Of a stretch of DNA of 24,000 nt, positions 1,072 through 24,000 are shown piece after piece. How positions within the stretch are numbered: the first letter of the stretch is position 1; each line of letters begins with the position of its first letter. This DNA comes from an uncultured Methanosarcinales archaeon. GTDB taxonomy: Archaea > Nanobdellota > Nanobdellia > Woesearchaeales > UBA12501. Location: contig CAYWPA010000007.1 in the NCBI GenBank assembly GCA_964459835.1, forward strand, positions 11,662 to 35,661, written 5' to 3'. A program made the translations under genes and the position numbers. The notes under the pieces were generated by a model. It did not search any database and had not been told where the DNA came from. It was given only the letters and a program-made list of their open reading frames with translations.

Positions 1072-1094
1072 GAAGAGTATTAGGCCAAGCGAAA

Positions 1095-1246
1095 TTTTTT
1101 TGTGGGTTGAGCGTCTTCAAAATTCTTGATATATTTTTCTAAGGCTCTGCGTTCCCGTAGGGAGCATCCCCTCGCGACGAGCTCTATGTTTTTTTCAAAG
1201 GAATTTTGACCTGATGACGCTCAACCCACTTAAGCAGGCTTTGTAT
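1095..1246. repeat. Intergenic imperfect palindrome, family 1 (forward orientation), flanked by 11-bp direct repeats
   Basis: Perfect 14-bp inverted repeat gtgggttgagcgtc (1102-1115) / gacgctcaacccac (1216-1229). Second tier tcaaaattc (1117-1125) / gaattttga (1201-1209). Direct gccaagcgaaa at 1084-1094 and 1247-1257, and a third copy of that 11-mer at 16638-16648. Core cgttcccgtagggagcatcccctcgcgac. Confidence 0.6.
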
Positions 1247-1311
1247 GCCAAGCGAAACATTTATATATCCTCTAAGCAATATTTAAACCATTCATTTAAA
1301 AGAGGATTATC

Positions 1312-1887
1312 ATGGCTGTAAGCGATGTTTTTGTAAGAGGCGTTGAAGTTTTGGAACAATTGGGACTAAGCGATGTTCTTCTTCCGTTCTTTCTTGTCTT
1401 TACCCTTGTTTTCGCAATACTTCAGAAAAGCCATATACTTGGATCAGATGAGGCTGCCAAAAAATACAATATCATTCTTTCACTTGTGATGGCTTTTGCA
1501 GTCATCATTCCCCATGTCCTTGGAGTTTTTCCGCCTCAAGCAGATGTTGTTAACATAATAAATACTGCATTGCCTAATATTGCCTTGGTTATAATAGCTT
1601 TAGTGATGGTTCTTTTGCTGCTTGGCCTGTTCGGAGCAAAGGTTTCAGGGAATGTATCAGGCGGAATAGCATTAGTCGCTTTCATTGTTGTTGCGTATGT
1701 TTTCGGTGCAGCAGCAGGCTACTGGCAGGTAAGCCCCTGGTTTACTTTCTTGGAAGACCCTGATACACAGGCATTGATTATCATTCTTCTTGTATTCGGC
1801 TTAGTGGTTACCTTTATTACAGGAGGAGAAAAGAAAACTGCCGGTGAAGGAATGCTAAAAGGCCTAAAAGACTTATTTGCAAAATAA
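1312..1887 (+). CDS. Polytopic membrane protein, tandem paralog 2 of 3
   Basis: 191-aa ORF. VLEQLGLSDVLLPFFLVFTLVFAILQKSHILG aligns with paralog 1. SD-like agagga lies 8 nt upstream and TATA tttatatat is at 1260-1268. Confidence 0.75.
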   Translation: MAVSDVFVRGVEVLEQLGLSDVLLPFFLVFTLVFAILQKSHILGSDEAAKKYNIILSLVMAFAVIIPHVLGVFPPQADVVNIINTALPNIALVIIALVMVLLLLGLFGAKVSGNVSGGIALVAFIVVAYVFGAAAGYWQVSPWFTFLEDPDTQALIIILLVFGLVVTFITGGEKKTAGEGMLKGLKDLFAK

Positions 1888-1888
1888 A

Positions 1889-2452
1889 ATGGCAACAATC
1901 TTGGATGTTACTATACTGGAGAATTTTAAAGTCATAATTGGAATGGTTTTTGTTATTGCCGTTGTGTTTGGGATTCTTGAGACAATAAAGATATTCGGCG
2001 AGAACAGGGGACTAAACATACTTGTTGCGGTTCTTATAGGTTTGCTAGTTTTGGTTTTTCCTGATGTAATTTCAATTATTGCAATAGCAGTCCCATGGTT
2101 TACCATGCTTTTCCTTCTTATACTTGTGATGCTTATAGCTTACAAAATGCTCGGTGCAACAGATGCTGACATTTCTTCTGCTTTGACAGCTGACAGGACA
2201 ATAGTATGGGTTGTTGCAATAGTGTGCATTGTTATTGTGATTGCTGCTGCATCTTCTGTTTTCGGGCAGAAATTACTGACTGGAACAGAAGAAGCGCCTG
2301 CAGAGGGCGCTATTCCGGGAACAAGCACTGCAACAGAAGACTTTTCAGCAAACGTCGGGGCAACATTCTTTCATCCAAAAATGCTTGGCCTAATCTTGAT
2401 TTTCCTGATTGCTGTTTTTACAATGGCAATTCTTGGAGGGAAAGTACGATAA
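1889..2452 (+). CDS. Polytopic membrane protein, tandem paralog 3 of 3
   Basis: Same frame as track ORF 1877..2452. I prefer ATG 1889 (MATILD...) because all three paralogs then start with MA and the overlap with the upstream stop disappears. ILETIKIFG matches LEKTKIFG in paralog 1. Confidence 0.7.
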   Translation: MATILDVTILENFKVIIGMVFVIAVVFGILETIKIFGENRGLNILVAVLIGLLVLVFPDVISIIAIAVPWFTMLFLLILVMLIAYKMLGATDADISSALTADRTIVWVVAIVCIVIVIAAASSVFGQKLLTGTEEAPAEGAIPGTSTATEDFSANVGATFFHPKMLGLILIFLIAVFTMAILGGKVR

Positions 2453-2454
2453 GA

Positions 2455-2463
2455 TTTATATAT
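2455..2463 (+). promoter_or_regulatory. TATA box (tttatatat) for the 2486 gene; leaderless spacing
   Basis: agatttatatatttc is centred about 27 nt upstream of ATG 2486. Confidence 0.5.
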
Positions 2464-2485
2464 TTCTGATTAAAACTCCCTTCTT

Positions 2486-3187
2486 ATGAAGTTTAAGATT
2501 GACAATAAAGTTATTGAGGCTTTTCATGGTTTAAACATAGGAATTGTAATTGCTAATAGTATTGATAATACTGGTTCTAATGAGGAAATTATGAATTTAA
2601 TTCAGGAAAAACAAGAAGAAATTAAAGCAAATTTTGATAAGGAAAATCTGTCACAAAATCCAAAAATAGAAGTATGGAGAAAAGCATACTCTTCTTTTGG
2701 AGCAAAGCCAAAAAAATACAAATGCTCTGTTGAAAACCTTTATAGAATGATTTTGGATGGAATTGATTTAAAGCATATAAATAAAGTTGTTGATATTTAT
2801 AATTACATTTCCATAAAGCATATTCTTCCTGTTGGAGGGGATGATATAGATAAGGTTGATGGAAACATTTTATTGAAGTTTGCTTCTGGAAATGAGCAGT
2901 TTACCGAGCTAAACTCTAATGAAACAAAGAATCCACAAAAAGGAGAGGTTGTTTATGTTGATGACAAAGAAGTTCTATGCAGAAGATGGAACTGGAGAGA
3001 ATGTGACAAGACAAAGATGACTGATGAAACAAAAAATGTTGCTTTAGTTATTGAAGGTTTGCCTCCTTTTACAAAAGAAGAAATTGAAAATATTAGCAAA
3101 GAATTGGCTGAGTTAGTTGAGAAGTTTTGCGGTGGGGAAGTTAAAACAGTTATTTTAAATGAAAATATAACAGAAGCAGAACTATAG
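2486..3187 (+). CDS. Stand-alone B3/B4 tRNA-binding domain protein (PheRS beta-subunit B3/4-like, COG3382-type)
   Basis: 233 aa. VWRKAYSSFGAKPKKYKCSVENLYRMIL, INKVVDIYNYISIKHILPVGGDDIDK, GEVVYVDD..VLCRRWNWRECDKTKMT and NVALVIEG fit the B3/4-domain family pattern as I remember it. Confidence 0.75.
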   Translation: MKFKIDNKVIEAFHGLNIGIVIANSIDNTGSNEEIMNLIQEKQEEIKANFDKENLSQNPKIEVWRKAYSSFGAKPKKYKCSVENLYRMILDGIDLKHINKVVDIYNYISIKHILPVGGDDIDKVDGNILLKFASGNEQFTELNSNETKNPQKGEVVYVDDKEVLCRRWNWRECDKTKMTDETKNVALVIEGLPPFTKEEIENISKELAELVEKFCGGEVKTVILNENITEAEL

Positions 3188-3805
3188 TTATCTCTTCATC
3201 CTTTTTGTAATCCTTGACAATTCATTAACATTTTCTACAAAGCCGGGAAGGATTTTCTGGAAGACTTTTTCCAATGCCTTTATTTCTGTTGCAACATTTG
3301 TCAGGCCTTTGTCATACTCTCCTACTTTTCCTAAAATTCCCTCATGAAGCCTGTCAAAGCTCTGCTTTATGTCGGACATCTGCTGTTCCATTCTTGTTAA
3401 TCTTGTTTCTGTATTGTCTTTCCAGTCTGCAATCCTTGATACATTTGCCATAAGCTCCTTCCATTTTTCATCAATAATTGTTTCTGCAACTTCCTCTATC
3501 CTTTCCTCATTGGATGCAGGAAAAAATGAAGAAGAAACAGGCTGAAACCCTCCTGAAGAAGGTGGCATCGGCATTTCTGATGGAAAGCCGGCAGGAGAAA
3601 CTGCTTCTTTCATGTCTGCCTGATGTAGTGCCTCATTTATCTGGTCAATTGAAAATCCGCCTCTCTGCAGGTTCTGGACTATTTGGTTGTTCGTAAAGCC
3701 CTGCTGCTTCATTATAAGAACCTGCTCTGTAGGAATACCCATCTGTTCCTGGCCCATTGGCGGCGGACTGCTCTTTTTTCCAAAAATATCGTCAAGTAAA
3801 GCCAT
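3188..3805 (-). CDS. Coiled-coil protein with an N-terminal small helical module and a P/S-rich linker; possible pilus/archaellum accessory protein
   Basis: 205-aa ORF. N-terminal GIPTEQVLIMKQQGFTNNQIVQNLQRGGFSIDQINEALHQAD, a low-complexity PAGFPSEMPMPPSSGGFQP stretch, then heptad-like sequence (TRLTRMEQQMSDIKQSFDRL...). A TATA-like element lies about 27 nt upstream. The function is inferred only from the neighbourhood. Confidence 0.6.
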   Translation of the reverse strand: MALLDDIFGKKSSPPPMGQEQMGIPTEQVLIMKQQGFTNNQIVQNLQRGGFSIDQINEALHQADMKEAVSPAGFPSEMPMPPSSGGFQPVSSSFFPASNEERIEEVAETIIDEKWKELMANVSRIADWKDNTETRLTRMEQQMSDIKQSFDRLHEGILGKVGEYDKGLTNVATEIKALEKVFQKILPGFVENVNELSRITKRMKR

Positions 3806-3849
3806 TTTTCTTATTATTGTTAGATTTATATTTAAAGTTTACCTTCTTT

Positions 3850-4299
3850 TTATCTTCTTCTTTGATTTAATTTTTCATCGATTACTTTTTCAACTTCCTC
3901 GCGAGTGATAAAATGCATAGGCTCCCACAAGTTAATGTAGTTTTCCAAAACCTTAACTTCTTCTATTTTTGCGCATTCTCTCAGCTCTTTGACAATAAGC
4001 TTTACCTTTCCTTTCAAATCCTCAAACTCTCTTTTGAAATCAGTAAGGTCAGAATTAATAAGCTTCAGCTCATTTTCAACGCCTTTGTTTGTATCAAGGA
4101 TGTTCTGCTCTGTTACTTGAGTCTTGTTTCTTAGGTTATTGTATCTCTCTTCCAGCAGCCTCATTCTTGCAGAAATATTGTTGAGCTGTCCTGAAAGCTC
4201 TATTGAAGGGCCAGCAATCTCAGGCCTGTGGCCAAATAAGTCTCCAAAGCCGCGCTTTTTTTCTTCCTTTGACTCTGGCTGCAACGGAAATTCCGGCAT
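3850..4299 (-). CDS. Coiled-coil protein; weak FlaC-like pattern (tentative)
   Basis: 149-aa ORF. An SD-like aaagaggtg sits directly upstream. Long heptad-like region (MRLLEERYNNLRNKTQVTEQNILD...DLKGKVKLIVKEL) ending in LENYINLWEPMHFITREEV, which resembles the coiled-coil plus LxxYE...NPF end of the FlaC_arch family. This rests on memory only. Confidence 0.55.
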   Translation of the reverse strand: MPEFPLQPESKEEKKRGFGDLFGHRPEIAGPSIELSGQLNNISARMRLLEERYNNLRNKTQVTEQNILDTNKGVENELKLINSDLTDFKREFEDLKGKVKLIVKELRECAKIEEVKVLENYINLWEPMHFITREEVEKVIDEKLNQRRR

Positions 4300-4453
4300 A
4301 GCACACCTCTTTTTACACTTATACCGGCTTTATGTTTATAAAGTTTCCTTGAAAAACCCAAAACTTTATATAGTAATTATAATATAAACTATATTTAATA
4401 TTATAAAAAATAGAAAACATTAAAAAATATATATTATAATATAAGGAAAAAGC

Positions 4454-4603
4454 ATGAAAAGGCCTATTTCAGCGACTATTGATAAGGAGCTTATATCATG
4501 GCTAGATGAAATTCTTAAGGACAAGAAAAAGTACAGGAACAAATCCCATGTCATAGAAATAGCCTTGGAAAACCTGAAGGAGGACCTGAAGAAGAATGCC
4601 TGA
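4454..4603 (+). CDS. Ribbon-helix-helix (CopG/Arc/MetJ-like) DNA-binding protein, 49 aa
   Basis: Below the ORF-track size cutoff. My translation is MKRPISATIDKELISWLDEILKDKKKYRNKSHVIEIALENLKEDLKKNA, which gives a beta-strand (ISATID) followed by two helices. The stop TGA at 4601-4603 overlaps the ATPase start at 4596 (ATGCCTGA). Confidence 0.7.
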   Translation: MKRPISATIDKELISWLDEILKDKKKYRNKSHVIEIALENLKEDLKKNA

Positions 4604-6896
4604 ACAGAGAGAGAGCTGGGTATATGAAGTGATAAGGGAAGGAGAAGAAGTAATTCTTAGAATAGACTGCGAAGGGCTGTTAAGAGTACCTTCAATAGAG
4701 AATGAGCCAATATACATGGCAAAGACTTTTGAAACATTGATGGAAGTTGGCAATGCAACAAAAATTGTCTTTGTCCAGAAAAGGGATTATGAATACGAAT
4801 ATGAGCAGACAAAAATGCTGCTGGAAGTTGCAAAGCTTTACAATGATTTTCTGAAGCAGAAAGATATTTTTTCCTACCAGGCCTTGAGCTTTGGCGGAAA
4901 GTGCATGAAAAATCTGAACGAGAGGTATACAACACTGCAGAATGTTATTTTCAGAAAAATAAAAGAAGACCCTGTGGGAGCGTATGTTGAGCTGAAAAGG
5001 ATTATAAGGGATGAAAAGATAAAATCAACAAAAATAGTCAGCGCTGAAGATGACTACTGCATAAGAAAATATATCGGAGTCCTTAGCTATGTTATAAAGC
5101 ATCTTGAGAAGACAAAATTAATACAGCTTGCAACGCCGTACACAGAAGGCTTTAAGCTTGGGGACAGAAGCGTTTACAGGGAAATCTTTCATCCGATAAT
5201 CAAGCCTGACTTTATGTTCACAAAGCTGATGAGCGGCTACCCTAAAGACAGCGAAGAGATAGACAACTATTCCATTGAAAGCAATACAGAAGTCAGCATT
5301 TTCAAATTTCCGAACAATGTAAAGTATCTATATCATTTAACCCCCCCCGAGTTCAAGCTGTCAGAGGACAAATATGACCTTCTTGACCTCGCAAGAAACA
5401 TAATGGCAGAGCACAAGCCAACAAGGGCAGAGTTTGTAAACCCAAAGAGAATGAGGGAGGTTTTCTATAATGTAGGAAGGGACCTGATAGATGAATTGCT
5501 TACATACAGGCCAGTAAAGATGACTGAAAAAGAGAAAGCAGAGGTAACTGATATTTTAGTTAGGTATACTGTTGGCTTTGGCCTTGTTGAAATGCTGCTG
5601 AGAGATGAAAAGATACAGGATATTTCTGTAAACTCTCCTTTGGGAAGAATACCTTTGTTTATTGTTCATGGAGATTATGCTGACTGCGATACAAATATTG
5701 TTCCAACAATGCCTGAGGCTGAATCATGGGCTTCAAAATTAAGGATGATTTCAGGAAGGCCTTTGGATGAGGCAAACCCTATACTTGACACAGAATTAAG
5801 GCTGCCAGGTGCAGACACAAGAGTAGCTGCAATCACACAGCCATTGGACCCGACTGGATTTGCTTTCTCTTTCAGTAGGCACAGGGAGAGGCCTTGGTCT
5901 TTGCCTTTGTTTTTCAAATACAAAATGATAAACCCCTTAGGAGCAGGAATTCTCAGCTTCATGATCGACGGAACAAGGAGCATGCTTATTGCAGGAACAA
6001 GAAGCTCAGGAAAATCGTCTTTCCTGTCAAGCTTAATGGTGGAGATAATGAGAAGGTACAGGATGATAACTATTGAGGACACTCTGGAGCTGCCGACAGG
6101 AAGCTTAAGAGACCTTGGCTTCAACATCCAGTCACTGAAAGTTGCTTCTGCATTAGTGAGAGGAAGCTCAGAGGTTTCTGCAGAGGATGGAATAAGAAGC
6201 ACACTGCGTTTGGGAGACTCATCTTTGATTATTGGAGAAGTAAGAAGCAAGGAGGCAATCGCGTTGTATGAAGCGATGAGAGTTGGAGCTGCTGCAAATG
6301 TTGTTGCAGGAACAATCCACGGCGATTCTCCCTACGGAGTATATGACAGGGTTGTCAATGACATAGGAATCCCTAAAACTTCATTCAAGGCTACCGATAT
6401 AATCGTTGTTGCAAACCCGATCAAAAGCCCTGATGGCATACACAGAAACAGAAGAATAACGCAGATAACAGAGGTAAGAAAGCACTGGAAAGACGACCCT
6501 ATGCTTGAGGGAGGGTTTGTTGACCTGATGAAGTACGATGCAAAGACAGACCAGCTTGAGCCTTCACAGGACTTGATAAATGGAGAGAGCGATACATTAA
6601 AGGCAATAGCTGCAAACATAAAGGATTTTGCAGGAAACTGGGATGCAGTGTGGCAGAACATTGAGCTGAGGGCAAAGATGAAGCAGACTCTTGTTGAGTA
6701 TGCAGAAAAGCTGAAGGATTATGAAATGCTGGAAGCGCCTTTTACAATATTGTGCAATGACATGATGCACCTGCTTTCAGACAGGATAAGAAGGGAGACA
6801 GGATATGTTGATCCTAAAAGGATATTTATGGAATGGGATATGTGGCTGAGAAGGGAGCTTAAGAAGAGGGCTTTGGAAAAGCAGATTAAGCGCTAG
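4596..6896 (+). CDS. Type II/IV secretion-family ATPase (FlaI/ArlI/PilB-like), unusually long at 766 aa
   Basis: Walker A LIAGTRSSGKSSFLSSL, Walker B / Asp-box region DSSLIIGEVRSKEAIALYEA and His-box GTIHGDSP appear in the expected order for this family. A long N-terminal region precedes the NTPase core. Confidence 0.85.
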   Translation: MPEQRESWVYEVIREGEEVILRIDCEGLLRVPSIENEPIYMAKTFETLMEVGNATKIVFVQKRDYEYEYEQTKMLLEVAKLYNDFLKQKDIFSYQALSFGGKCMKNLNERYTTLQNVIFRKIKEDPVGAYVELKRIIRDEKIKSTKIVSAEDDYCIRKYIGVLSYVIKHLEKTKLIQLATPYTEGFKLGDRSVYREIFHPIIKPDFMFTKLMSGYPKDSEEIDNYSIESNTEVSIFKFPNNVKYLYHLTPPEFKLSEDKYDLLDLARNIMAEHKPTRAEFVNPKRMREVFYNVGRDLIDELLTYRPVKMTEKEKAEVTDILVRYTVGFGLVEMLLRDEKIQDISVNSPLGRIPLFIVHGDYADCDTNIVPTMPEAESWASKLRMISGRPLDEANPILDTELRLPGADTRVAAITQPLDPTGFAFSFSRHRERPWSLPLFFKYKMINPLGAGILSFMIDGTRSMLIAGTRSSGKSSFLSSLMVEIMRRYRMITIEDTLELPTGSLRDLGFNIQSLKVASALVRGSSEVSAEDGIRSTLRLGDSSLIIGEVRSKEAIALYEAMRVGAAANVVAGTIHGDSPYGVYDRVVNDIGIPKTSFKATDIIVVANPIKSPDGIHRNRRITQITEVRKHWKDDPMLEGGFVDLMKYDAKTDQLEPSQDLINGESDTLKAIAANIKDFAGNWDAVWQNIELRAKMKQTLVEYAEKLKDYEMLEAPFTILCNDMMHLLSDRIRRETGYVDPKRIFMEWDMWLRRELKKRALEKQIKR

Positions 6897-6946
6897 TTAA
6901 AAAAGAAGTTAAAAAAGAGGTGAATAAGAAGAGGTGGATTTCTTAA

Positions 6947-9220
6947 ATGGCAGAGGAAGAAGATAAAGGGATGACAGAAAAGGAGAAGAGGAAGAAAGAA
7001 GTAGAGGAATTGCTGCATAAGTACAAGCAGAGGATGAGAGAAGAGTTCAAGACAGAGCCAAAGGAAAATGTTTTGATAAATCCGGTTGCAACAAAAGAAT
7101 ATGTTGATTTCAAGAAAGATTACATGCCAAGGCATCTGAACTTGTATGAAAAATCCTGCAACCTTGCAGAGCAGATACTAAAGATTTCTCCTGACAAGAA
7201 AAAGCTTTCCGATATACAGGAAGCCATAAACATATGCCATCTAAGTGCTACTCCTTCAGGTGTAGCTTCCCTTGCCATACTTGTCCCTATTTTAGTTATT
7301 GTGCTTGGCTCTTTGATAAGCTATGTTTTGGTGCAGTCAACATTCTTTATCATATTCTTTCTTATAATTGGCGTTTCATTGATTCCTGCTTTAAACAAAG
7401 CGCCTTTCTACCTTGCCAACAACTGGAGGATGAAGACAAGCAACCAGATGGTTCTGTCAATATTTTATGCTGTGACATACATGAGGCACACATCAAATAT
7501 TGAAAGGGCTATTGAGTTTGCCTCTGACCATATAGCCCCTCCTTTGTCTCTTGACCTGAAAAAAGTGCTGTGGGACGTTGAGACAGAGAAGTACGAGTCT
7601 GTAAAGGAAAGCCTTGACATATACTTGGAGACATGGAAGAAATGGAACATGGAATTTATTGAGTCTTTCCATCTGATTGAGGGATCTTTGTATGAGGGAA
7701 GCGAAGACAGGAGAATTGCACTGCTTGACAATGCGCTTTCAGTGATGCTGGAAGAGACATACGAAAAGATGATGCATTATTCTCAGAACCTGAAATCGCC
7801 AATCACAATGCTCCATATGCTTGGGGTTATTCTTCCAATACTTGGCTTGGTCATACTTCCTCTTGTTGTCAGCTTTATGTGCGAGGTCAAATGGTACCAC
7901 CTTGCAGCTTTGTACAATGTTGCATTGCCTGTCGGTGTTTTTTTCCTTGCAAAAAGCATTCTTTCTTCACGTCCGACAGGGTACGGGGATACTGACATAA
8001 GCGAGGAGAACCCTGAAATAGCAAAGTACAGGAACATTATTTTCAACATTGGCAAAAAAGAAATAAAGCTGAACCCATTGGTTGTAAGCCTTGGATTTAT
8101 CTTTTTGTTTATTTTTGTAGGATTAATCCCTTTGATTCTTCACTCGCTCACTTCAGATACAAAATGGGACTTGATCTACGATGGTGAAACAGTAAAGGCA
8201 GACTTTACATACGATAATCCTGAAGCAAAGTACAGCCTTTTGGGATATAAAACATCAAAAGGATGCCCTCCAGGAGAAAAAGACGTAGGAAACATAATAG
8301 GGCCATTTGGTTTAGGCGCTTCTATTTTGAGCCTGCTGGTTGTTGCGGGAGTTGGTGTGGGAACAGGGCTTTATTTTAAGCTAAAGTCCCAGAATGTAAT
8401 AGCCATAAGGGAAAAAGCAAAGCAGCTTGAGCAGGAGTTTGCAGCAGCATTGTTCCAGCTTGGAAACAGATTGGGAGATGGCCTGCCTCCAGAGATTGCT
8501 TTCGGAAAAGTGGCTGAATCAATGCAGGGGACTGTTTCAGGAGATTTCTTCAATATGGTTTCTGCAAACATCACCCGCCTAGGAATGAGTGTTGAAAAGG
8601 CAATATTTGATCCTCATCATGGAGCTCTTGTTTATTACCCTTCAAACTTAATTGAAAGCTCAATGAAAGTCTTGACAGAGTCTGCAAAGAAAGGGCCATT
8701 GATTGCAGCACAGGCAATCATCAATGTTTCGCGCTACATAAAAGAGATACACAGGGTTAACGAAAGGCTGAAAGACCTAATGGCAGATATAATTTCATCA
8801 ATGAAGGCGCAGATTTCTTTTTTATCTCCTGTTATCTCAGGAATTGTAATTGGAATTACTTCAATGATAACTACTATTTTAGGGAAGCTCGGGCAGCAAA
8901 TAAGGACAATAAGCGAAAGAGCAGGACCGGATGCAACTGCTCCAGGTGCTCCAGGGACAGAGGGAATAATGAGCTTGTTCGGAGACGGAGTTCCAACTTT
9001 CTATTTCCAGATTGTTGTAGGGTTTTATGTTGTGCAAATTGGATATATACTAACAATTATGGTAAATGGTGTGGAAAATGGATCTGATTCACTGAATGAA
9101 AGGTTCCTGCTTGGAAAAAACCTCATAAAAAGCACACTGCTCTATTGCCTTGTTTCATTATTTGTAATCGTTACCTTCAACATAATAGCCAGTACTATTG
9201 TAGGAGGGATAAAAGGATAA
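6947..9220 (+). CDS. Polytopic membrane protein, probable FlaJ/PilC/TadC-like platform (two T2SSF-like repeats)
   Basis: 757 aa. SD-like gaggtg appears twice just upstream. Two soluble helical blocks are each followed by TM clusters: NIERAIEFASDHIAPPLSLDLKKVLWDVETEKYESVKESL, and LEQEFAAALFQLGNRLGDGLPPEIAFGKVAESMQGTVSGDFFNMVSANITRLGMSVEKAI. That arrangement is the T2SSF layout. It lies immediately downstream of the ATPase. Confidence 0.6.
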   Translation: MAEEEDKGMTEKEKRKKEVEELLHKYKQRMREEFKTEPKENVLINPVATKEYVDFKKDYMPRHLNLYEKSCNLAEQILKISPDKKKLSDIQEAINICHLSATPSGVASLAILVPILVIVLGSLISYVLVQSTFFIIFFLIIGVSLIPALNKAPFYLANNWRMKTSNQMVLSIFYAVTYMRHTSNIERAIEFASDHIAPPLSLDLKKVLWDVETEKYESVKESLDIYLETWKKWNMEFIESFHLIEGSLYEGSEDRRIALLDNALSVMLEETYEKMMHYSQNLKSPITMLHMLGVILPILGLVILPLVVSFMCEVKWYHLAALYNVALPVGVFFLAKSILSSRPTGYGDTDISEENPEIAKYRNIIFNIGKKEIKLNPLVVSLGFIFLFIFVGLIPLILHSLTSDTKWDLIYDGETVKADFTYDNPEAKYSLLGYKTSKGCPPGEKDVGNIIGPFGLGASILSLLVVAGVGVGTGLYFKLKSQNVIAIREKAKQLEQEFAAALFQLGNRLGDGLPPEIAFGKVAESMQGTVSGDFFNMVSANITRLGMSVEKAIFDPHHGALVYYPSNLIESSMKVLTESAKKGPLIAAQAIINVSRYIKEIHRVNERLKDLMADIISSMKAQISFLSPVISGIVIGITSMITTILGKLGQQIRTISERAGPDATAPGAPGTEGIMSLFGDGVPTFYFQIVVGFYVVQIGYILTIMVNGVENGSDSLNERFLLGKNLIKSTLLYCLVSLFVIVTFNIIASTIVGGIKG

Positions 9221-10221: not shown

Positions 10222-11076
10222 TTACTCAAACCTTTTAAAGGCTTTGTCAAGAACATCGTCAGGCCAGCCAAGGCTTTCAAGGTGCTTTCTTATCTCAGCT
10301 TTTGAATGGCCAGAATATAATGCATCAAATATATAATTCTGGAGCTGCCCCATATGCTCTTCTTTGATTAGCTCTTTTATTTCCTTTTCCTCTTTTCTTT
10401 CCTCAAGCAGAAACATGCCTGCTGCTATTACAATAACCAAAACAACTATTCCTATGATGGAGTACCAGAAATACTCATCTGAAAAAAGCTTCGGATCAAG
10501 AATTTTCTTTGCGCCGGGGCAGCAGTTAAATCCCCTTGCTTGCAGCTGCCAGTTGCTTAGGCACTGCTCAACCACGGGGCAGTATTTTTCCACAAACTCT
10601 TCATTGCAGATAACTTCCCCGCCTTCTTTTACAAGCTTTGATGGAAAGTAGATAAAATCTTTTCCGCTTCCCTTGACAAAAGTATTACAGGAAGGGCTTT
10701 TTACTGACTTCAGAAAAGCATCATAGCTCGTGTATTTTATTACAATATCTTCTTTGTCCAGGCCATCGCAGTAAATGCTGTTCGGGCTCTCGCTGACTTC
10801 AACTGTACCTGATGTCTTTTCTATATCGAAAGAATAGATATTCTCATTCCCGAAGTCAATAAGCAGGCACATGTTTGCGCCAACACCAGCGTATCTTGCC
10901 ATTGGATTTGCGGCTGCAAAGCTTGCGACATTAAGCTTTACATCGGTCATGTCTACTCCTGGTATTTTTGCAGCAAAGCCTGTTATCGTAAAACCAGATG
11001 CAAGGTTTATAAGAATTATGACTATAAGCACAAAAACGATTACAATTCCATAGCCTATATCCTCTTTTTTCGGCAT
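10222..11076 (-). CDS. Bitopic/surface protein: N-terminal TM, Cys-containing ectodomain, second TM, and a cytoplasmic small helical module
   Basis: 284 aa. TM segments are MPKKEDIGYGIVIVFVLIVIILINL and YSIIGIVVLVIVIAAGMFLL. There are 8 Cys between them. The C-terminus is LQNYIFDALYSGHSKAEIRKHLESLGWPDDVLDKAFKRFE. A TATA-like aaaatataaatac (complement, about 11097-11108) lies about 27 nt upstream. Confidence 0.65.
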   Translation of the reverse strand: MPKKEDIGYGIVIVFVLIVIILINLASGFTITGFAAKIPGVDMTDVKLNVASFAAANPMARYAGVGANMCLLIDFGNENIYSFDIEKTSGTVEVSESPNSIYCDGLDKEDIVIKYTSYDAFLKSVKSPSCNTFVKGSGKDFIYFPSKLVKEGGEVICNEEFVEKYCPVVEQCLSNWQLQARGFNCCPGAKKILDPKLFSDEYFWYSIIGIVVLVIVIAAGMFLLEERKEEKEIKELIKEEHMGQLQNYIFDALYSGHSKAEIRKHLESLGWPDDVLDKAFKRFE

Positions 11077-19994: not shown

Positions 19995-20018
19995 AAATAT
20001 TTATAATGCTGAAGTTCT

Positions 20019-20843
20019 ATGAACTGTTTTATGTTTGATAGGCTTAGAAAAGATAAAAGAGGAATTGGCTTAGTACTTTTCATCATTATTCTCACCCTTA
20101 TTATTTTTATGATAGGAATGTGTTCTGGTGCAATGTGCGGTGACCAGAGCAACGGTGACCAGAGCAAAGGCTGTACCGAAGACACGCAAGGTGATGAGCC
20201 TGAAGCTTCTCCATTCTCTGATAGCGGCTTTGGAAAAGAAAAGCCTGAATGTGAAAAAGGGGCAACAAGATCGTGCGAAGAAAGCGGTTATCCAACAGAA
20301 GGAGTCTGCAGGGGAGCGATGGAGAAATGCGTCAAGGGAACATGGAGCGGATGCGGAGAAAACCAGTTCGGGGAAAAATACGAAGAAACCGAAGTATCAT
20401 GCGACAAGCTTGACAATGACTGCGACGGAGAAACAGATGAAGGTTGCGATGATGACGGAGACGGATTTATAGATTCTTTGATGAAATATGAAAACGGGGA
20501 AGAAAGAGATGACTGCAGAGACAATGATGCAGCTGTCAATCCTAGTGTGCAGGAATTCTGCGGAGACCAGATAGACAACAATTGTGATGGAAGCGCTGAA
20601 GAAGACTGCGAATGCAGCTCAGGAGAAAAAATGCCTTGCGCAAAGCAATCTGGAATATGCGCAGGCTCTAGGGTTACGTGCACAACAGACGGAAAAATTC
20701 CAGAGTGCAATTATGCAGTATTAGTAAAGCCATTTGTTTACATGGAACAGGATACTTTATGCGATGGGTTGGATAATGACTGCGATGGAATCATAGACGG
20801 CCATCAGGCAGGGACAGAGCAAAACTGCCCACCTCAGCCTTAG
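20019..20843 (+). CDS. Secreted Cys-rich protein with DNDCDG (MopE-like putative metal-binding) repeats and a pilin-like class III N-terminus
   Basis: 274 aa. The N-terminus (MNCF)MFDRLRKDKRG-IGLVLFIIILTLIIFMIG has a basic stretch, then Gly, then a hydrophobic helix. Repeats are CDKLDNDCDGETDEGCDDDGDGF, CGDQIDNNCDGSAEEDC and CDGLDNDCDGIIDG. TATA tttataa (20000-20006) is centred about 27 nt upstream of the second ATG at 20031, so that may be the true, leaderless start. Confidence 0.7.
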   Translation: MNCFMFDRLRKDKRGIGLVLFIIILTLIIFMIGMCSGAMCGDQSNGDQSKGCTEDTQGDEPEASPFSDSGFGKEKPECEKGATRSCEESGYPTEGVCRGAMEKCVKGTWSGCGENQFGEKYEETEVSCDKLDNDCDGETDEGCDDDGDGFIDSLMKYENGEERDDCRDNDAAVNPSVQEFCGDQIDNNCDGSAEEDCECSSGEKMPCAKQSGICAGSRVTCTTDGKIPECNYAVLVKPFVYMEQDTLCDGLDNDCDGIIDGHQAGTEQNCPPQP

Positions 20844-20953
20844 CTGCCTTCTTAATCCTCAGCCTTAACTACTTCTGAATGCTTAACAAGCTTTTTATGC
20901 TGTTTTTCTATTATCATACGCAAAGCTGCAATATTCGGTAGAAGTTGGTAGGG

Positions 20954-21841
20954 ATGGATCCTAAATTAGTAGAGTATATACAGAAAGAGATAAGCGACGG
21001 CTATAGCTTGAATTCTATAAAATTGTCGTTATTAAAGCAGGGCTATCCTGCAAATACTGTAGATGAAAACATAAATTATGTGATGCAGGAAGAGTCTGCA
21101 TTAATCAATTATATAAAACAGCAAAGGGCAAGGAAGATAGAAGACGATGTCATCAAAGCAGCCTTGATAAATTCCGGATATCCTGTCCCTGACATAAACA
21201 ATGCCCTCAATGCACTGAAGAAAACTCCTAAATTGATTTATATTCTTGCAGCTTTAATTATATTTGGGCTTGGGCTTTACATGTTCTGGCCGAGTTCAGA
21301 GCCAGCTTCTACCAAGCCCAGCCCAGGTATAACAGAGAAAGAATTCGGGAAAGAAATAATTGCAGAAGAAATTCCTGAAGAACCTATTCCAGAAGAGAAA
21401 GGCTTTGAAGATTTTGAAAAAGGATTGTTTGAAGAAGAAAACATAACAAATGAAACAGCTGAAGAAATTGTTTTTGAAGAGAACAAAACAGCAATATCTG
21501 AAGAAGGGCGTGAAGAAATTCCTCCAGAACCAGAAGTAACACAGTTTGAAGAAAAAACAGAATTAGAGGAAATAATTGAAGATGTCGAAACAAGCAATGT
21601 GGATACTGCAACGCAGATATGCACAGAAACAGATGACAATGTTTATAGGGATGCTTGCTTTAATCAGCTGGCAAAATCATCAAGCAATCCGGATTACTGT
21701 GAAAATATAATCAACACAGAAAAAAAGGATTCATGCTACCTAAGTTTCATACTTAACAGCAAGGACTATTCATTGTGTGCAAAGCTTGTTTCAGAGGATT
21801 TAAGGCAATCCTGCGAGTCATTGAAGGAGACAGCTTCATGA
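20954..21841 (+). CDS. Single-pass membrane protein: two N-terminal small helical modules, a TM, a Glu-rich spacer and a C-terminal Cys-repeat domain
   Basis: The track ORF starts at TTG 20945; I prefer ATG 20954 (MDPKLVEY...). Modules are LVEYIQKEISDGYSLNSIKLSLLKQGYPANTVDENINYV and LINYIKQQRARKIEDDVIKAALINSGYPVPDINNALNAL. The TM is LIYILAALIIFGLGLYMFW. The C-terminus is CTETDDNVYRDACFNQLAKSSSNPDYCENIINTEKKDSCYLSF...CAKL...SCESL. The stop overlaps the next start (ATGA). Confidence 0.7.
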   Translation: MDPKLVEYIQKEISDGYSLNSIKLSLLKQGYPANTVDENINYVMQEESALINYIKQQRARKIEDDVIKAALINSGYPVPDINNALNALKKTPKLIYILAALIIFGLGLYMFWPSSEPASTKPSPGITEKEFGKEIIAEEIPEEPIPEEKGFEDFEKGLFEEENITNETAEEIVFEENKTAISEEGREEIPPEPEVTQFEEKTELEEIIEDVETSNVDTATQICTETDDNVYRDACFNQLAKSSSNPDYCENIINTEKKDSCYLSFILNSKDYSLCAKLVSEDLRQSCESLKETAS

Positions 21842-24000
21842 GCAAAAAAGCACAGGTAACAACTTTTATGATTGTGGGGCTGATTTTGATAATCACAGTG
21901 CTGACTATTGTTTACTATACTTCCCAGGCAGAGGAGGCTGTTGCGGAAAAAGAGGCAGAGAAAGCTGCTTTGCCTGCAGAGGTCCTGGACGAGTTTGCGC
22001 TTTCTTCTTTAGTGAGAAGCTGCATTGCAAACGAGAGGCAGGCATTTGAAAAAATAGGGGAATTCGGAGGTTTCCTGTTGCAGCAGGAAGGAAGGCACAG
22101 GAAATACAACACAACTTACTACAACTATCACTGCTCTATAAGGCCCGGGTTTGACAAATGCACAAATAATTTAGTGTCAAGAAAGGAAATGGAAAACACT
22201 TTAGAAAGCAACATAAAAAACAGAGTAAAGCAATGCATTGATCTTTCACTGTCAAAATTTGAAGAGCAGGGCTATAATATACAAAAAGGAAATTATGAAT
22301 TAAAAGTCAGCATTGCTGTTGACGACATCAGTGTAAAGGTAAACTATCTTATGACTATAGTAAGAGATTCTACAACAATAAAATCAGGAGAATTCGGAGC
22401 AACATTCCAATATCCTTTAGGGAGGATGTATGATCTTGCAAACGAAATTTTAAATTCTGAATTAAGGAACGGATATTTTGATCAGGTTAAGTGGATTAAA
22501 GAGCACGGCGCAGAGGTTGTAATTGAAAAGCACAAGCCTTATCCGGATATTTTGTACAAATTAAAAAAATTAAATCCAGAAACAAGGGAAATATATTTCT
22601 TTAACTTTGGCTTGCAGGGAAAAGACAAGATGAAAAATCTTGCAAATCCAGAACCGCAGCCTTCTCCAGATCCTGATGCTTTCCTTGGCTGCTGTTATCT
22701 AGCAGATGGCAATGTTTATGAAAATACACAAGAAGATTTGTGCACAGGAGAATTCAAAAAAGGATTATGCGACTTGGGACGATATTTTCCTGCAGCAAGC
22801 TTTGAGGAAAAAGAGCTTTGCAATGGCTTCCCATGCAAAAGCTGCGAAAAGACTTATTCCCATGAAGATGACCCAGCCAACAGGGAGAAATGGACAGGGC
22901 CTTTAAGAAAGCACAGTGAAAGCTGGTGCGTTTACGAGGGTCCAACAGGCAATGGAAGGGATTTTGTAGGAAGCAGGCACTACAGACATTACTGCGCAAA
23001 TGGAGTTGAGTATGTGGAAGAATGTGGCGATTTCAGGACAGAGCTTTGCGCAGAAGAGCAGAATAATGTTAACGGCTATAATTTCAGGACAGCAATATGC
23101 AGGCCGAACAGATGGCAGGAATGCCATTCCATTACAAACAAAGAAGAATGCCTTGACAGGGAAAAAAGAGACTGCAGCTGGAGCGATTTGCAGGATCAGG
23201 TAATTTCTTATGGAGATTTGAATCCACCACCACAGACAAAAGAGCAGACAAGAAAATGCATTCCAGAAGTTGCTCCAGGATTAATGTTCTGGGATACTGC
23301 TTCAGCAAATGATGTCTGCAACTGGGGAAATGATGTAAGGGAATGCGACCAGACAGACTGCCCGCAGAAATGGACAGACTTCACTGCCTTGTACTGCAGT
23401 CAGCTTGGAGACTGCGGAGTGTCAAGAAATCTAAACGGAAGATTGAACAGGGAGCGAATAAGCGGAATAGGGGCAAGCATTGACAACACTTTGTTTACAC
23501 CAAGCTTTACAACATTTCCTAACCAAATCCATCAAAATGTTTTTGAAAGAATTTTCCCGAGCCAGGATGCTGCATGGGATGAATACTCTTACAAATTAAA
23601 TCTGCCTGTTTCCCCTTCAAAAAGAGATCCTGTGGAAATAACAAAAGGAATGTTCATAAATCCAGGCTATACTCACAAAGATATCTCTGTTTTTGTTCAA
23701 AAATATGCAGAATGGGTAAAAAATCTGGACATCGGAATGTTCATGTGGCAGCTAGCATTTGGAGAGAAGATAGAGCTTTACACAGTCGGAGCTTCTGTGT
23801 GCAATGCATGGAGCGCCCCAAACAGGATAGACGACTGCGGAGTCTGCAACAACAACCCATTAAGGCCTTGCACTCCATATAGGTGCTACAGCTTGGGAAG
23901 AAGCTGCTTTTACGAAGAGGATGAAAATGGAGTAGGGCTGTGCAGTTTTGGAACAGCTGATGACAGGTCTTATTACATCAAATTCAAAAGCCAGATTTCA
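21838..24000 (+). CDS. Large (more than 720 aa, 3' end outside the window) Cys-rich extracellular protein with a pilin-like class III N-terminus
   Basis: Absent from the ORF track because no stop lies in the window. I translated 721 codons from ATG 21838 by hand and found no stop. The N-terminus is MSKKAQVTTFMIVGLILIITVLTIVYY (basic, then Ala-Gln, then a hydrophobic helix). Many Cys pairs follow (LGCCYLADG, FPCKSCEK, CGVCNNNPLRPCTPYRCYSLGRSCFYEE). The listed ORFs at 21905-23203 are out-of-frame or antisense to it. Confidence 0.75.
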   Translation, partial: MSKKAQVTTFMIVGLILIITVLTIVYYTSQAEEAVAEKEAEKAALPAEVLDEFALSSLVRSCIANERQAFEKIGEFGGFLLQQEGRHRKYNTTYYNYHCSIRPGFDKCTNNLVSRKEMENTLESNIKNRVKQCIDLSLSKFEEQGYNIQKGNYELKVSIAVDDISVKVNYLMTIVRDSTTIKSGEFGATFQYPLGRMYDLANEILNSELRNGYFDQVKWIKEHGAEVVIEKHKPYPDILYKLKKLNPETREIYFFNFGLQGKDKMKNLANPEPQPSPDPDAFLGCCYLADGNVYENTQEDLCTGEFKKGLCDLGRYFPAASFEEKELCNGFPCKSCEKTYSHEDDPANREKWTGPLRKHSESWCVYEGPTGNGRDFVGSRHYRHYCANGVEYVEECGDFRTELCAEEQNNVNGYNFRTAICRPNRWQECHSITNKEECLDREKRDCSWSDLQDQVISYGDLNPPPQTKEQTRKCIPEVAPGLMFWDTASANDVCNWGNDVRECDQTDCPQKWTDFTALYCSQLGDCGVSRNLNGRLNRERISGIGASIDNTLFTPSFTTFPNQIHQNVFERIFPSQDAAWDEYSYKLNLPVSPSKRDPVEITKGMFINPGYTHKDISVFVQKYAEWVKNLDIGMFMWQLAFGEKIELYTVGASVCNAWSAPNRIDDCGVCNNNPLRPCTPYRCYSLGRSCFYEEDENGVGLCSFGTADDRSYYIKFKSQIS

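What the first reader, a model, noticed from the sequence alone, without database searches (positions are those of the whole stretch)
20019..24000. Operon of cysteine-rich surface proteins with pilin-like N-termini, including an untracked ORF of more than 720 aa
Three co-oriented genes sit at 20019, 20954 and 21838, and the last two are joined by an ATGA overlap.
- The first and third genes begin with a short basic stretch, then Gly or Ala, then a roughly 20-residue hydrophobic helix: MFDRLRKDKRG|IGLVLFIIILTL and MSKKA|QVTTFMIVGLILIITVL. This is the architecture of archaeal class III (prepilin) signal peptides cut by FlaK/PibD-type peptidases.
- Unlike ordinary small pilins, both carry large Cys-rich ectodomains. 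One has three DNDCDG (MopE-like) motifs. The other is over 720 aa with dense Cys pairs and no family I recognise.
- They would therefore be unusual substrates: pilin-anchored adhesins or tip proteins for the assembly machinery about 11 kb away, possibly a cell-cell attachment apparatus.
- The middle protein links a cytoplasmic helical module to an extracellular Cys domain.
Basis: partly seen in the sequence, partly recalled or inferred. Interest (0 to 1): 0.72.

Follow-up and report, generated by a model that had tools for sequence, protein, structure and literature searches.

The report
Prepilin-signal giant surface protein, DPANN archaeon
The large gene at the window's end encodes an intact 1171-residue, disulfide-rich surface protein of a Woesearchaeota-type (DPANN) archaeon; its N-terminus carries a family-wide conserved prepilin-type signal, which points to a pilus-related surface or attachment structure, but the other "pilin-like" gene and the link to the ATPase 11 kb away are not supported.

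Summary
The three co-oriented genes and the ATGA overlap are real.

- **g3 (the large ORF).** A near-identical public contig shows it is intact at 1171 aa. It has a single N-terminal hydrophobic helix and 44 Cys, and no Pfam, NCBIfam, PHROG or PDB match. Its N-terminus, MSKKA|QVTTF, fits a motif kept in essentially all relatives: K/R at -2, G/A/S at -1, Q at +1, T/S at +3, F/Y at +5, with leaders mostly 3-10 residues. This is the best-conserved segment of the protein. The first 265 residues form a DPANN-only family of 8768 clusters at 50% identity.
- **Fused and split forms.** In Pacearchaeota-type loci this N-terminal module is a separate ~250-aa gene. It sits next to a 950-1360-aa Cys-rich protein and four small prepilin-like genes. 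g3 is the fused form.
- **g1.** A MopE-repeat protein whose relatives carry ordinary Sec-type signals, not class III signals.
- **g2.** An N-in bitopic protein with a 6-Cys C-terminal domain. It is a recurrent direct neighbour of g3 relatives.
- **The ATPase at 4596.** It is FlaI/TadA-like but belongs to its own conserved block. No g3 relative lies within 10 kb of 80 ATPase relatives.

Verdict: a new DPANN family of a known kind (a class-III-signal adhesin or modular pilin). Processing and function are untested.

The parts
20000..20006 (+). TATA-like box TTTATAA, about 27 nt upstream of ATG 20031. It implies a leaderless g1 mRNA.
   Evidence: Read directly from the sequence. The Logan gene call also starts at 20031, giving 270 aa. 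The promoter assignment is an inference.
20031..20843 (+). g1: a 270-aa secreted or membrane-anchored Cys- and Asp-rich protein with three MopE-type repeats. An alternative start lies at 20019. The N-terminus is Sec-type, not class III.
   Evidence: Pfam PF11617 E 8.8e-15, three stretches. One hydrophobic segment at residues 12-30. 23 Cys. Relatives in L002, L022 and L045 have Sec-type signals.
20954..21841 (+). g2: a 295-aa bitopic protein. It has two N-terminal helical modules (predicted cytoplasmic), a TM segment at 94-112, an acidic linker and a conserved C-terminal 6-Cys domain. Its stop codon overlaps the g3 start (ATGA).
   Evidence: Family members lie adjacent to g3 relatives in 12 distinct loci, directly adjacent (0-130 bp) in most of them. 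No Pfam, NCBIfam or PDB match.
21838..24000 (+). g3: the first 721 codons of a 1171-aa ORF. The ORF continues 1353 nt past the window end, as seen on contig L001:5445-8960.
   Evidence: 35 relatives in the first protein search and 162 in species-representative genomes, all DPANN.
21838..21921 (+). g3 residues 1-28: leader MSKKA, predicted class III cleavage site A5|Q6, then the hydrophobic helix QVTTFMIVGLILIITVLTIVYY.
   Evidence: The only FlaFind-like hit in the window. Family logo: -2 K/R 93%, -1 G/A/S 98%, +1 Q 100% (by construction of the count), +3 T/S 93%, +5 F/Y 95%; modal leader 5 residues. Most conserved segment of the protein.
21985..22632 (+). g3 residues ~50-265: the conserved alpha/beta 'N-domain', with the invariant motif K-H-[RK]-P-Y-P-D-x-x-Y. 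It occurs as a separate ~250-aa protein in split-type loci.
   Evidence: AF2 pLDDT ~90-95. Profile search: 8768 clusters at E<=1e-3, always at the protein's N-terminus. Stand-alone forms. No PDB fold match below 1e-3.
22684..23487 (+). g3 residues ~283-550: disulfide-rich core with 21 Cys, most of them invariant. It contains HxESWCxYxxxxGxGxDxVGSRHYxHxC and CRPNRWxxC.
   Evidence: Invariant columns in alignment A1. Shared with the 950-1800-aa Sec-signal proteins P0028-P0035 and with the large proteins of L072-L083.
23800..23943 (+). g3 residues ~655-702: a small Cys knot, CxxWxAPxxxxDCxxCNxxxxxPCTxYxCxSLGxxCxYEE.
   Evidence: Invariant C655, C667, C670, C678, C683, C690 and C702. Conserved in the split-type large proteins.
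4596..9220 (+). Context only, not shown to belong: a 766-aa FlaI/TadA-like ATPase (4596-6896) and a 757-aa polytopic partner with ~8 hydrophobic segments (6947-9220).
   Evidence: Pfam T2SSE 46.5 bits against a cut-off of 24.9. NCBIfam FlaI E 4e-32, below its cut-off. The partner has no T2SSF hit. The block is conserved without any g3 relative within 10 kb.

Best explanation
g3 is a modular cell-surface protein of a Woesearchaeota-type DPANN archaeon that starts like a prepilin.

**Architecture**
- A short basic leader (MSKKA).
- A class III signal-peptidase-type site (A|Q).
- A ~22-residue hydrophobic helix, then a flexible linker.
- A conserved alpha/beta N-domain, a disulfide-rich core, a Cys knot and a long helical hairpin.
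- C-terminal Ig-like beta-sandwich domains.

**Most likely mechanism**
1. The helix inserts N-in.
2. An A24-family prepilin peptidase removes the leader, leaving Q as the first residue, as in Methanococcus EppA/Epd-type pilins.
3. The helix either anchors the ectodomain in the membrane or lets it be built into a short type-IV-filament-like structure together with small pilin-like proteins. Either way the Cys-rich and Ig-like part is displayed as an adhesin or tip module.

**Partners.** In related lineages the pilin-like N-module and the Cys-rich body are two adjacent genes; here they are fused. g2 (an N-in bitopic protein with an extracellular 6-Cys domain, start/stop-overlapped with g3) is its conserved partner. 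g1 (a Sec-secreted MopE-repeat protein) and the downstream ABC-2 exporter are accessories specific to this clade.

**Shown:** gene structure, intactness, single N-terminal helix, motif conservation, the fused/split relationship, clustering with small class-III-like genes, DPANN restriction.

**Inferred:** cleavage, incorporation into a filament, adhesin function, the g2-g3 interaction.
For: **Intactness and topology**
- The ORF is intact at 1171 aa.
- It has a single hydrophobic segment at residues 7-25.

**The N-terminal motif**
- g3 is the only FlaFind-like N-terminus in the window.
- The motif [KR][KR][GAS]Q[IVL][TS]x[FY] with short leaders occurs in essentially all complete relatives.
- Residues 3-16 are the best-conserved segment. 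Their majority fraction is 0.61, against 0.48-0.54 for the folded domains.

**Family and architecture**
- The N-domain family has 8768 clusters. The match always lies at the N-terminus, in both ~1100-aa fused and ~250-aa stand-alone proteins.
- The members looked up are named only as Woesearchaeota, Nanoarchaeia or unclassified archaeon hypotheticals.
- Split loci have N-domain gene plus Sec-signal Cys-rich gene, repeated two to three times. In L081 and L082 four small class-III-like genes and then an S-layer gene follow.
- The AF2 model (pLDDT 76, pTM 0.66) shows a helix at 3-42, a low-confidence linker, then folded domains and Ig-like C-terminal domains. Eight of 27 relatives give weak Big_13 hits.
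- 44 Cys, many of them invariant.

**Neighbours**
- g2-family genes are adjacent in 12 loci and ABC-2/ABC genes in ~10.

**Literature**
- Class III signals on large non-pilin proteins encoded away from the filament machinery, and large Ig- or Cys-rich adhesin-like proteins in archaeal type IV filament loci, are documented (PMC4858521; bioRxiv 10.64898/2026.04.22.720090).
Against: - No cleavage data exist, and no prepilin peptidase gene was found. A GxGDxK-plus-TM screen of ~2.3 Mb of fetched loci gave nothing, but these are only fragments of genomes.
- The helix is followed by a variable, low-confidence linker rather than packing onto the globular domain as in true pilins.
- Foldseek finds no pilin or any other PDB fold below E 1e-3.
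- Pfam Class_IIIsignal and Pilin_N do not match.
- Ser at -1 (21% of the family) lies outside the classic FlaFind G/A set.
- No small pilin-like genes lie near the fused form, either in this window or in L002 and L022.
- There is no conserved linkage to the FlaI-like ATPase.
- One published statement says type IV pilus components are missing in DPANN genomes (bioRxiv 10.1101/2020.05.14.094862).
Confidence: 0.55

Rival explanations
1. g3 is an ordinary uncleaved type II (signal-anchor) membrane glycoprotein. On this reading the conserved basic residues, small residue and Gln only set topology or pack the helix. The protein would be a membrane-tethered envelope or adhesion protein with no involvement of type IV filament machinery.
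For: - A single N-terminal TM segment with positive-inside charges.
- A variable flexible linker after the helix.
- No pilin fold.
- No ATPase, peptidase or pilin genes beside the fused form.
- Neighbours are envelope-biogenesis genes: GT2, GT-C/AglB-like, LGT-like and ABC-2.
Against: - Topology alone does not explain an invariant Q at +1, G/A/S at -1 (98%) and T/S at +3. It also does not explain why this is the most conserved segment.
- The same motif sits on four families of small proteins clustered with the split form.
Confidence: 0.25
2. g3 is the S-layer or main envelope-lattice protein of these archaea.
For: - It is large, extracellular and widespread in the lineage.
- It lies next to glycosylation genes in several loci.
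- In L081 and L082 the cluster sits beside an S-layer gene.
Against: - A separate bona fide S-layer-family protein exists in L082 (PF05124, E 3.5e-14).
- g3 has no S_layer_N or S_layer_C hit.
- There are 2-4 divergent paralogues per genome, with long and short forms.
- g3 has only 3 N-glycosylation sequons.
Confidence: 0.08
3. The g3 N-terminus is a long Sec signal peptide cut by signal peptidase I (for example after SQA30), releasing a soluble secreted protein.
For: The window copy has a small-x-small site, TSQA|EE, just after the helix.
Against: - That site is not conserved in relatives.
- The hydrophobic stretch is TM-length, ~22 residues.
- The conserved feature lies at the N-terminal side of the helix, not at its C-terminal side.
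Confidence: 0.07
4. The trio is carried by a virus or mobile element, for example as a receptor-binding or fusion protein, rather than being a cellular surface system.
For: - An integrase and a resolvase lie ~2 kb from one relative (L004).
- The best BFVD Foldseek hits are phage tail or internalin-like proteins, at marginal scores.
Against: - No PHROG hit.
- The flanks are core housekeeping genes such as CTP synthase, RNase HII and Topo VI.
- The BFVD matches are generic strings of Ig-like domains with TM-scores below 0.1.
- The family occurs throughout the lineage.
Confidence: 0.02

Closest known systems
Class III signal peptide substrate-binding proteins of the Sulfolobales 'bindosome' (GlcS, AraS, TreS)
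   Same: A prepilin-type leader and hydrophobic helix sit on a large non-pilin ectodomain. The genes lie away from the filament machinery and next to ABC transporter genes (bioRxiv 10.64898/2026.04.22.720090; PMC4858521).
   Different: g3 has no substrate-binding domain (no Pfam hit). The neighbouring transporter is an ABC-2 exporter type. The lineage and the domains are unrelated.
EppA-processed Epd pilins of Methanococcus maripaludis (Pfam PF04021, Class_IIIsignal/DUF361)
   Same: A short basic leader, a small residue at -1, Gln at +1 and Ser/Thr at +3. The 2026 preprint reports 'System 1' filament loci in some DPANN. The Q+1 preference of EppA is recalled from memory.
   Different: +5 is Phe/Tyr, not Glu. 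PF04021 does not match (E 7.3). g3 is more than 1000 aa, not a small pilin.
Large adhesin-like proteins of archaeal type IV pilus loci (DUF2341/PilY-like proteins; Cys-rich or Ig-rich proteins of Thermoproteales)
   Same: They are large and extracellular with conserved cysteines or Ig folds, and are inferred tip or adhesin components encoded with minor pilins (PMC4858521; bioRxiv 10.64898/2026.04.22.720090). The split-type clusters in L081 and L082 look like this.
   Different: There is no sequence or fold similarity. The clusters lack an adjacent ATPase and platform gene. In g3 the pilin-like module is fused to the body.
Modular type IV pilins of Streptococcus sanguinis (PilB, PilC) (recalled from memory, not checked here)
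   Same: A prepilin N-terminus with a large functional module grafted on, displayed by a filament.
   Different: These are bacterial and have a recognisable pilin fold. No pilin fold was detected in g3.
Pfam PF11617 Cu-binding_MopE repeat proteins (applies to g1 only)
   Same: Three repeats score above the gathering threshold.
   Different: Metal binding is only 'putative' in the Pfam name. g1 is a short archaeal protein with a Sec-type signal.

Membership tests
Archaeal class III (prepilin-type) signal peptide proteins: g3 | K/R at -2, a small residue (G/A) at -1 and a short leader | tested here: met
   g3 reads MSKK-A|Q. In the family, -2 is K/R in 93% and -1 is G 55%, A 22%, S 21%. The modal leader is 5 residues. 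Ser at -1 is outside the classic rule.
Archaeal class III (prepilin-type) signal peptide proteins: g3 | A hydrophobic stretch of about 20 residues immediately after the cleavage site | tested here: met
   Residues 6-28; mean hydropathy 2.75 over residues 7-25; the only TM segment in the protein.
Archaeal class III (prepilin-type) signal peptide proteins: g3 | Cleavage by an A24 peptidase (FlaK/PibD/EppA) encoded in the same genome | not testable with these tools
A motif screen of the fetched loci found no candidate. No proteomics data.
Archaeal class III (prepilin-type) signal peptide proteins: g1 | A K/R-G/A motif directly before the helix, conserved in relatives | tested here: not met
   The window copy has KRG|IG, which fails at +2. 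The relatives read SRS|TIIL and SKT|TIIL, or show a plain Sec signal with an AxA-like c-region.
Type IV pilin / archaellin fold: g3 N-module | The N-terminal helix continues into and packs against a globular beta domain, with structural similarity to known pilins | tested here: not met
Pfam PF11617 Cu-binding_MopE: g1 | Score above the gathering threshold | tested here: met
   55.1 bits against 27; three stretches.
Type II/IV secretion ATPase (PF00437 T2SSE; FlaI/TadA-like): ORF 4596 | Score above the Pfam gathering threshold, and a FlaI equivalog score | tested here: inconclusive
   Pfam gives 46.5 bits against 24.9, which is met. NCBIfam FlaI gives 111.6 bits against 550, which is not met. 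It is a member of the superfamily but not an identified FlaI.
TadC/FlaJ platform protein (T2SSF): ORF 6947 | A T2SSF domain match | tested here: not met
   No Pfam or NCBIfam hit even at E 10. Only context supports the assignment: ~8 hydrophobic segments, and adjacency to the ATPase in 63 of 80 loci.
Archaeal S-layer family (PF05123/PF05124): g3 | An S_layer_N or S_layer_C domain | tested here: not met
   No hit in g3 or in 27 relatives. A distinct S_layer_C protein exists in L082.
   1 of 79 g3 loci (L007) and 0 of 80 ATPase loci show it within 10 kb. Flanks are limited to 10 kb, so looser synteny is not excluded.

The most novel reading that the evidence does not exclude
The N-domain protein, the Cys-rich giant protein and the four small prepilin-like proteins would together build a DPANN-specific, type-IV-filament-derived surface organelle. 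These components are separate genes in Pacearchaeota-type genomes; in Woesearchaeales the first two are fused, as in g3. On this reading the organelle is the host-attachment or host-penetration apparatus of these episymbionts. It would also supply the 'missing' pilins of nanoarchaeal-type secretion ATPases.
Probability: 0.2. Interest if true: 0.85.

Novelty: new variant of a known kind. Interest (0 to 1): 0.55.

Why it matters
Woesearchaeota and Pacearchaeota are abundant, uncultured, small-genome archaea thought to live attached to hosts. How they attach is unknown.

- One paper states that type IV pilus components are missing from DPANN genomes (bioRxiv 10.1101/2020.05.14.094862).
- An earlier census could not find cognate pilins for nanoarchaeal secretion ATPases (PMC4858521).

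The family found here is very large (thousands of 50%-identity clusters), DPANN-restricted and unannotated. Its most conserved feature is a prepilin-type N-terminus. It occurs either fused to, or next to, a giant disulfide-rich Ig-bearing protein and small pilin-like genes. That makes it a concrete and testable candidate for such a surface apparatus. It also gives a clean motif for finding class III substrates in these genomes.

If the signal turns out not to be processed, the result is still a well-defined new surface-protein family with two new domains.

Tried and rejected
**Family and structure searches that found nothing useful**
- Pfam, NCBIfam and PHROGs on g1, g2 and g3: only MopE for g1.
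- PDB sequence searches with the g3 profile and with g2: nothing.
- Foldseek of the full-length model against PDB and BFVD, and of the N-domain model against PDB: only generic Ig strings or weak NTF2/cystatin-like hits, none below 1e-3 in PDB.

**Attempts to reach more of the genome**
- I tried to reach the 49-kb NCBI source contig for more flank. Only short Logan contigs were returned.
- A regex screen for prepilin-peptidase-like ORFs (GxGDxK plus at least 4 TM segments) in all fetched loci found none. This is uninformative because the loci are genome fragments.

**Weak similarity not pursued**
- The g2 N-terminal helical module against ORF 3188 and ORF 10222: no similarity, or only weak (E 0.013).

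**Readings rejected**
- S-layer identity.
- Viral origin.
- A decayed ORF.
- A class III signal on g1.
- An operon or synteny link with the ATPase.

Full report
**Organism and context**

The window is archaeal. It encodes an RFC large-subunit-like AAA+ protein, a class II prolyl-tRNA-synthetase-like protein, an SSB-like OB-fold protein, FKBP, an M50 protease and CTP synthase. Every relative of the large protein comes from Woesearchaeota, Nanoarchaeota/Nanoarchaeia or Pacearchaeota MAGs. The organism is therefore a DPANN archaeon of the Woesearchaeales type. GC content is 32-44%.

- Three + strand ORFs lie at 20019/20031-20843 (g1), 20954-21841 (g2) and 21838 to the window end (g3).
- The g3 ATG overlaps the g2 TGA (TTCATGAGC).
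- A TTTATAA box at 20000-20006 sits ~27 nt before ATG 20031.
- Logan contig L001 matches the window at 7606 of 7607 bases and runs 1729 bp further. On it g3 is an uninterrupted 1171-aa ORF followed by an ABC-2-type permease gene.
- Relatives of 1070-1330 aa align over 96-100% of g3, so the ORF is not decayed.

**g3 anatomy**

- It has one hydrophobic segment (residues 7-25), 44 Cys and no Pfam, NCBIfam or PHROG family.
- An alignment of 27 relatives (A1) has 45 invariant columns. Thirty-one of them are Cys, and Q6 and G14 are nearly invariant.
- AlphaFold2 on that alignment gave pLDDT 76 and pTM 0.66. The model has these parts:

| Residues | Feature |
|---|---|
| 3-42 | helix |
| 39-48 | low-confidence linker |
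| 50-265 | alpha/beta domain, pLDDT ~90 |
| 283-550 | beta-rich Cys core |
| 655-702 | Cys knot |
| 803-903 | long helical hairpin |
| 908-1167 | beta-sandwich domains |

- Eight of the 27 relatives give weak Big_13 Ig-like hits.
- Foldseek against PDB and BFVD finds only generic strings of Ig-like domains.
- The N-domain modelled alone (pLDDT 89.5) has no PDB match below 1e-3.
- Profile and sequence searches of PDB are empty.

**The N-terminal signal**

- A FlaFind-type rule requires K/R at -2, G/A/S at -1, permitted residues at +1 to +4, and a hydrophobic 18-mer. Applied to every possible start in the window, it returns only g3.
- All complete relatives begin the same way.
- I counted 126 sequences in which my script located the motif. 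The script anchored on a Q just before the helix, so the 100% at +1 is by construction.

| Position | Residues |
|---|---|
| -3 | K/R 89% |
| -2 | K/R 93% |
| -1 | G 55%, A 22%, S 21% |
| +1 | Q 100% |
| +2 | I/V/L 88% |
| +3 | T/S 93% |
| +5 | F/Y 95% |

- The modal leader is 5 residues, and most leaders are 3-10 residues.
- By eye, about half of the 36 'misses' carry the motif and were lost to my heuristic. Most of the rest start inside or after the helix, or are otherwise truncated or mis-started.
- Residues 3-16 are the best-conserved stretch of the whole protein. Their majority fraction is 0.61, against 0.48 for the N-domain, 0.50 for the Cys core, 0.34 for the rest of the helix and 0.24 for the linker.
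- A plain membrane anchor would not need an invariant small-residue-Gln junction.
- The pattern resembles EppA-type Methanococcus pilins (Q at +1, S/T at +3; from memory), except that +5 is aromatic rather than Glu. The short Pfam models for class III signals do not match.

**Fused and split forms**

- A profile of residues 1-280 (A2) was searched against 1.84 billion cluster representatives. It finds 8768 proteins at E<=1e-3, 6458 at E<=1e-10 and 504 at E<=1e-30. The match always lies at the extreme N-terminus, in proteins of either ~1100 aa or ~250 aa.
- Twenty stand-alone ~250-aa members were inspected. All start M..[KR][KR][GAS]Q and end shortly after the domain.
- The members that carry names are hypothetical proteins from Woesearchaeota, Nanoarchaeia or unclassified archaea.
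- In loci L072-L083 and L084 the small protein sits directly upstream of a 950-1360-aa protein. That protein has its own Sec-type signal and 54-73 Cys, and it is colinear with g3 residues ~330-1100. The pair is repeated two or three times in tandem.
- In L081 and L082 four small proteins with class-III-like N-termini follow: ~170-180 aa, ~320 aa, ~165-185 aa and ~140-150 aa (for example MKLLKKG|QGEIVGLLVIVLL). Relatives of some of them also follow in L072 and L084.
- In L081 and L082 a gene follows that starts with an S-layer-type signal. The complete L082 copy (919 aa) matches PF05124 at E 3.5e-14.
- This arrangement looks like a minor-pilin set plus a tip or adhesin complex. g3 is the fusion of the pilin-like N-module to the Cys-rich body.
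- The fused form in this window, and in L002 and L022, has no such small genes within 10 kb.

**g1 and g2**

- g1 has three PF11617 repeats.
- Its relatives in L002, L022 and L045 carry an n-region, an h-region and a small-x-small c-region, with no K/R-G/A before the helix. The window copy's 'KRG|IG' also fails the rule at +2. g1 is best read as a Sec substrate or a signal-anchored protein.
- g2 has two ~40-residue helical modules, a TM segment at 94-112, an acidic low-complexity linker and a C-terminal 6-Cys domain.
- The family is defined by that C-terminal domain. The middle region varies among an acidic linker, a beta domain and GIDCGGxC repeats.
- g2-family genes lie adjacent to g3 relatives in 12 distinct loci, directly adjacent (0-130 bp) in most and sometimes in two copies.
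- The full g1-g2-g3 trio followed by ABC-2 permease, ABC ATPase and SecF/SecD genes is conserved only in the closest clade, L002 and L022.
- Other clades pair g3 relatives with GT2 and GT-C/AglB-core-like membrane proteins or with LGT-like genes. That is an envelope-biogenesis neighbourhood.

**The 'assembly machinery 11 kb away'**

- ORF 4596 belongs to the T2SSE superfamily and is most like FlaI/TadA.
- ORF 6947 is a polytopic protein with ~8 hydrophobic segments and no T2SSF match.
- I fetched 80 metagenome loci around ATPase relatives of 54-67% identity. The block is strongly conserved:

| Neighbour | Loci out of 80 |
|---|---|
| 6947-like partner | 63 |
| ORF 3850 relative | 53 |
| ORF 3188 relative | 42 |
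| each of the three 4-TM paralogues | 29-30 |
| SSB | 26 |
| ProRS | 23 |
| g3, N-domain or large Cys protein relatives | 0 |

- Class-III-like small genes are only sporadic in these loci.
- Conversely, only L007 among 79 g3 loci has this ATPase within 10 kb.
- The gene immediately upstream of g1, CTP synthase, is not conserved next to any other g3 relative.
- Both tests are blind beyond 10 kb. Functional coupling does not require linkage, and bindosome proteins are a precedent (bioRxiv 10.64898/2026.04.22.720090). The ATPase therefore remains a possible engine, but nothing here ties it to g3.

**Comparison with what is known**

- Class III signals on large non-pilin proteins are documented, as are large Cys- or Ig-rich adhesin-like proteins in archaeal type IV filament loci (PMC4858521; bioRxiv 10.64898/2026.04.22.720090).
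- g3 works like these by its sequence logic, but it is not a member of any described family. The tested membership features (pilin fold, S-layer domains, substrate-binding domain, PilY/DUF2341) were not met.
- I therefore rate it a new variant of a known kind. It has two new domains, a fused/split architecture and a DPANN-only distribution.
- The topic has some weight. One paper states that type IV pilus components are missing in DPANN genomes (bioRxiv 10.1101/2020.05.14.094862). Makarova et al. could not find cognate pilins for nanoarchaeal ATPases (PMC4858521).

**Verdict**

- The best explanation is a prepilin-signal modular surface or adhesin protein with g2 as its partner. My confidence is about 0.55.
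- The main rival is an uncleaved signal-anchor surface glycoprotein, at about 0.25.
- Interest is 0.55.

Noticed in passing
window 484-9220: A strongly conserved Woesearchaeal gene block. It holds three paralogous ~190-aa 4-TM proteins (484, 1312, 1877), two coiled-coil proteins on the - strand (3188, 3850), a 766-aa FlaI/TadA-like ATPase and a 757-aa polytopic partner that lacks any T2SSF match. The ATPase is 54-67% identical across the 80 best of 319 confirmed metagenome matches, far more conserved than g3. No pilin gene is adjacent. The function of the block is unknown.
   Followed up: partly
L081:7147-21761; L082:8534-21844; L072:4411-17594; L084:10001-20711: Split-type clusters: (N-domain ~250 aa + Sec-signal Cys-rich 950-1360 aa) repeated two to three times. 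In L081 and L082 four small class-III-like proteins and an S-layer-type gene follow; the complete L082 copy matches PF05124 at E 3.5e-14. In L072 and L084 the fetched stretch shows only some of the small proteins.
   Followed up: partly
L039:5944-6750; L022:5728-7743 and 14 other loci: Lgt-like genes (PF01790, prolipoprotein diacylglyceryl transferase, E 1.5e-14) lie within a few kb of g3 relatives in 16 loci. In L022 two copies sit directly upstream of the g1 relative. This is an unexpected bacterial-type lipoprotein enzyme in DPANN archaea.
   Followed up: no
L003:1391-4313; also L011, L021, L024, L037, L042, L051, L061, L067: One or two ~490-aa polytopic proteins (one has a weak AglB-core hit, E 5e-4) lie near g3 relatives on the opposite strand, with GT2 genes nearby in about half of these loci. 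This suggests the g3 family is glycosylated.
   Followed up: no
L031:3806-4240: An archaellin- or pilin-type N-terminus, MKKGEMGVGTLIIFIAMLLVAAVAAG, lies immediately downstream of a g3 relative.
   Followed up: no
P0028-P0035; L072:5348-9247; L081:10824-13898: Most of the split-type large Cys-rich proteins examined (12 of 14) carry one to five internal hydrophobic Gly/Ala-rich segments between the Cys core and the Cys knot. g3 lacks them. Their topology is unclear.
   Followed up: no
window 10222-11076 (- strand): A 284-aa protein with N- and C-terminal hydrophobic segments and a Cys-containing middle. Its C-terminal helical module is weakly similar to the N-terminal module of g2 (BLASTP E 0.013).
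   Followed up: partly
window 20000-20031: A TTTATAA box ~27 nt upstream of ATG 20031 suggests a leaderless transcript. The ATG at 20019 is then probably not the start.
   Followed up: partly
locus list (e.g. L007, L012, L017-L021): Many records titled 'uncultured Methanosarcinales archaeon' carry typical Woesearchaeota-type genes. The title is probably a placeholder or a wrong taxonomy.
   Followed up: no
L001:9038-9334; L002:6271-10838; L022:13850-16931: In the closest clade, an ABC-2 permease, an ABC ATPase and SecF/SecD genes follow the trio. ABC genes also lie next to g3 relatives in about 10 loci.
   Followed up: partly
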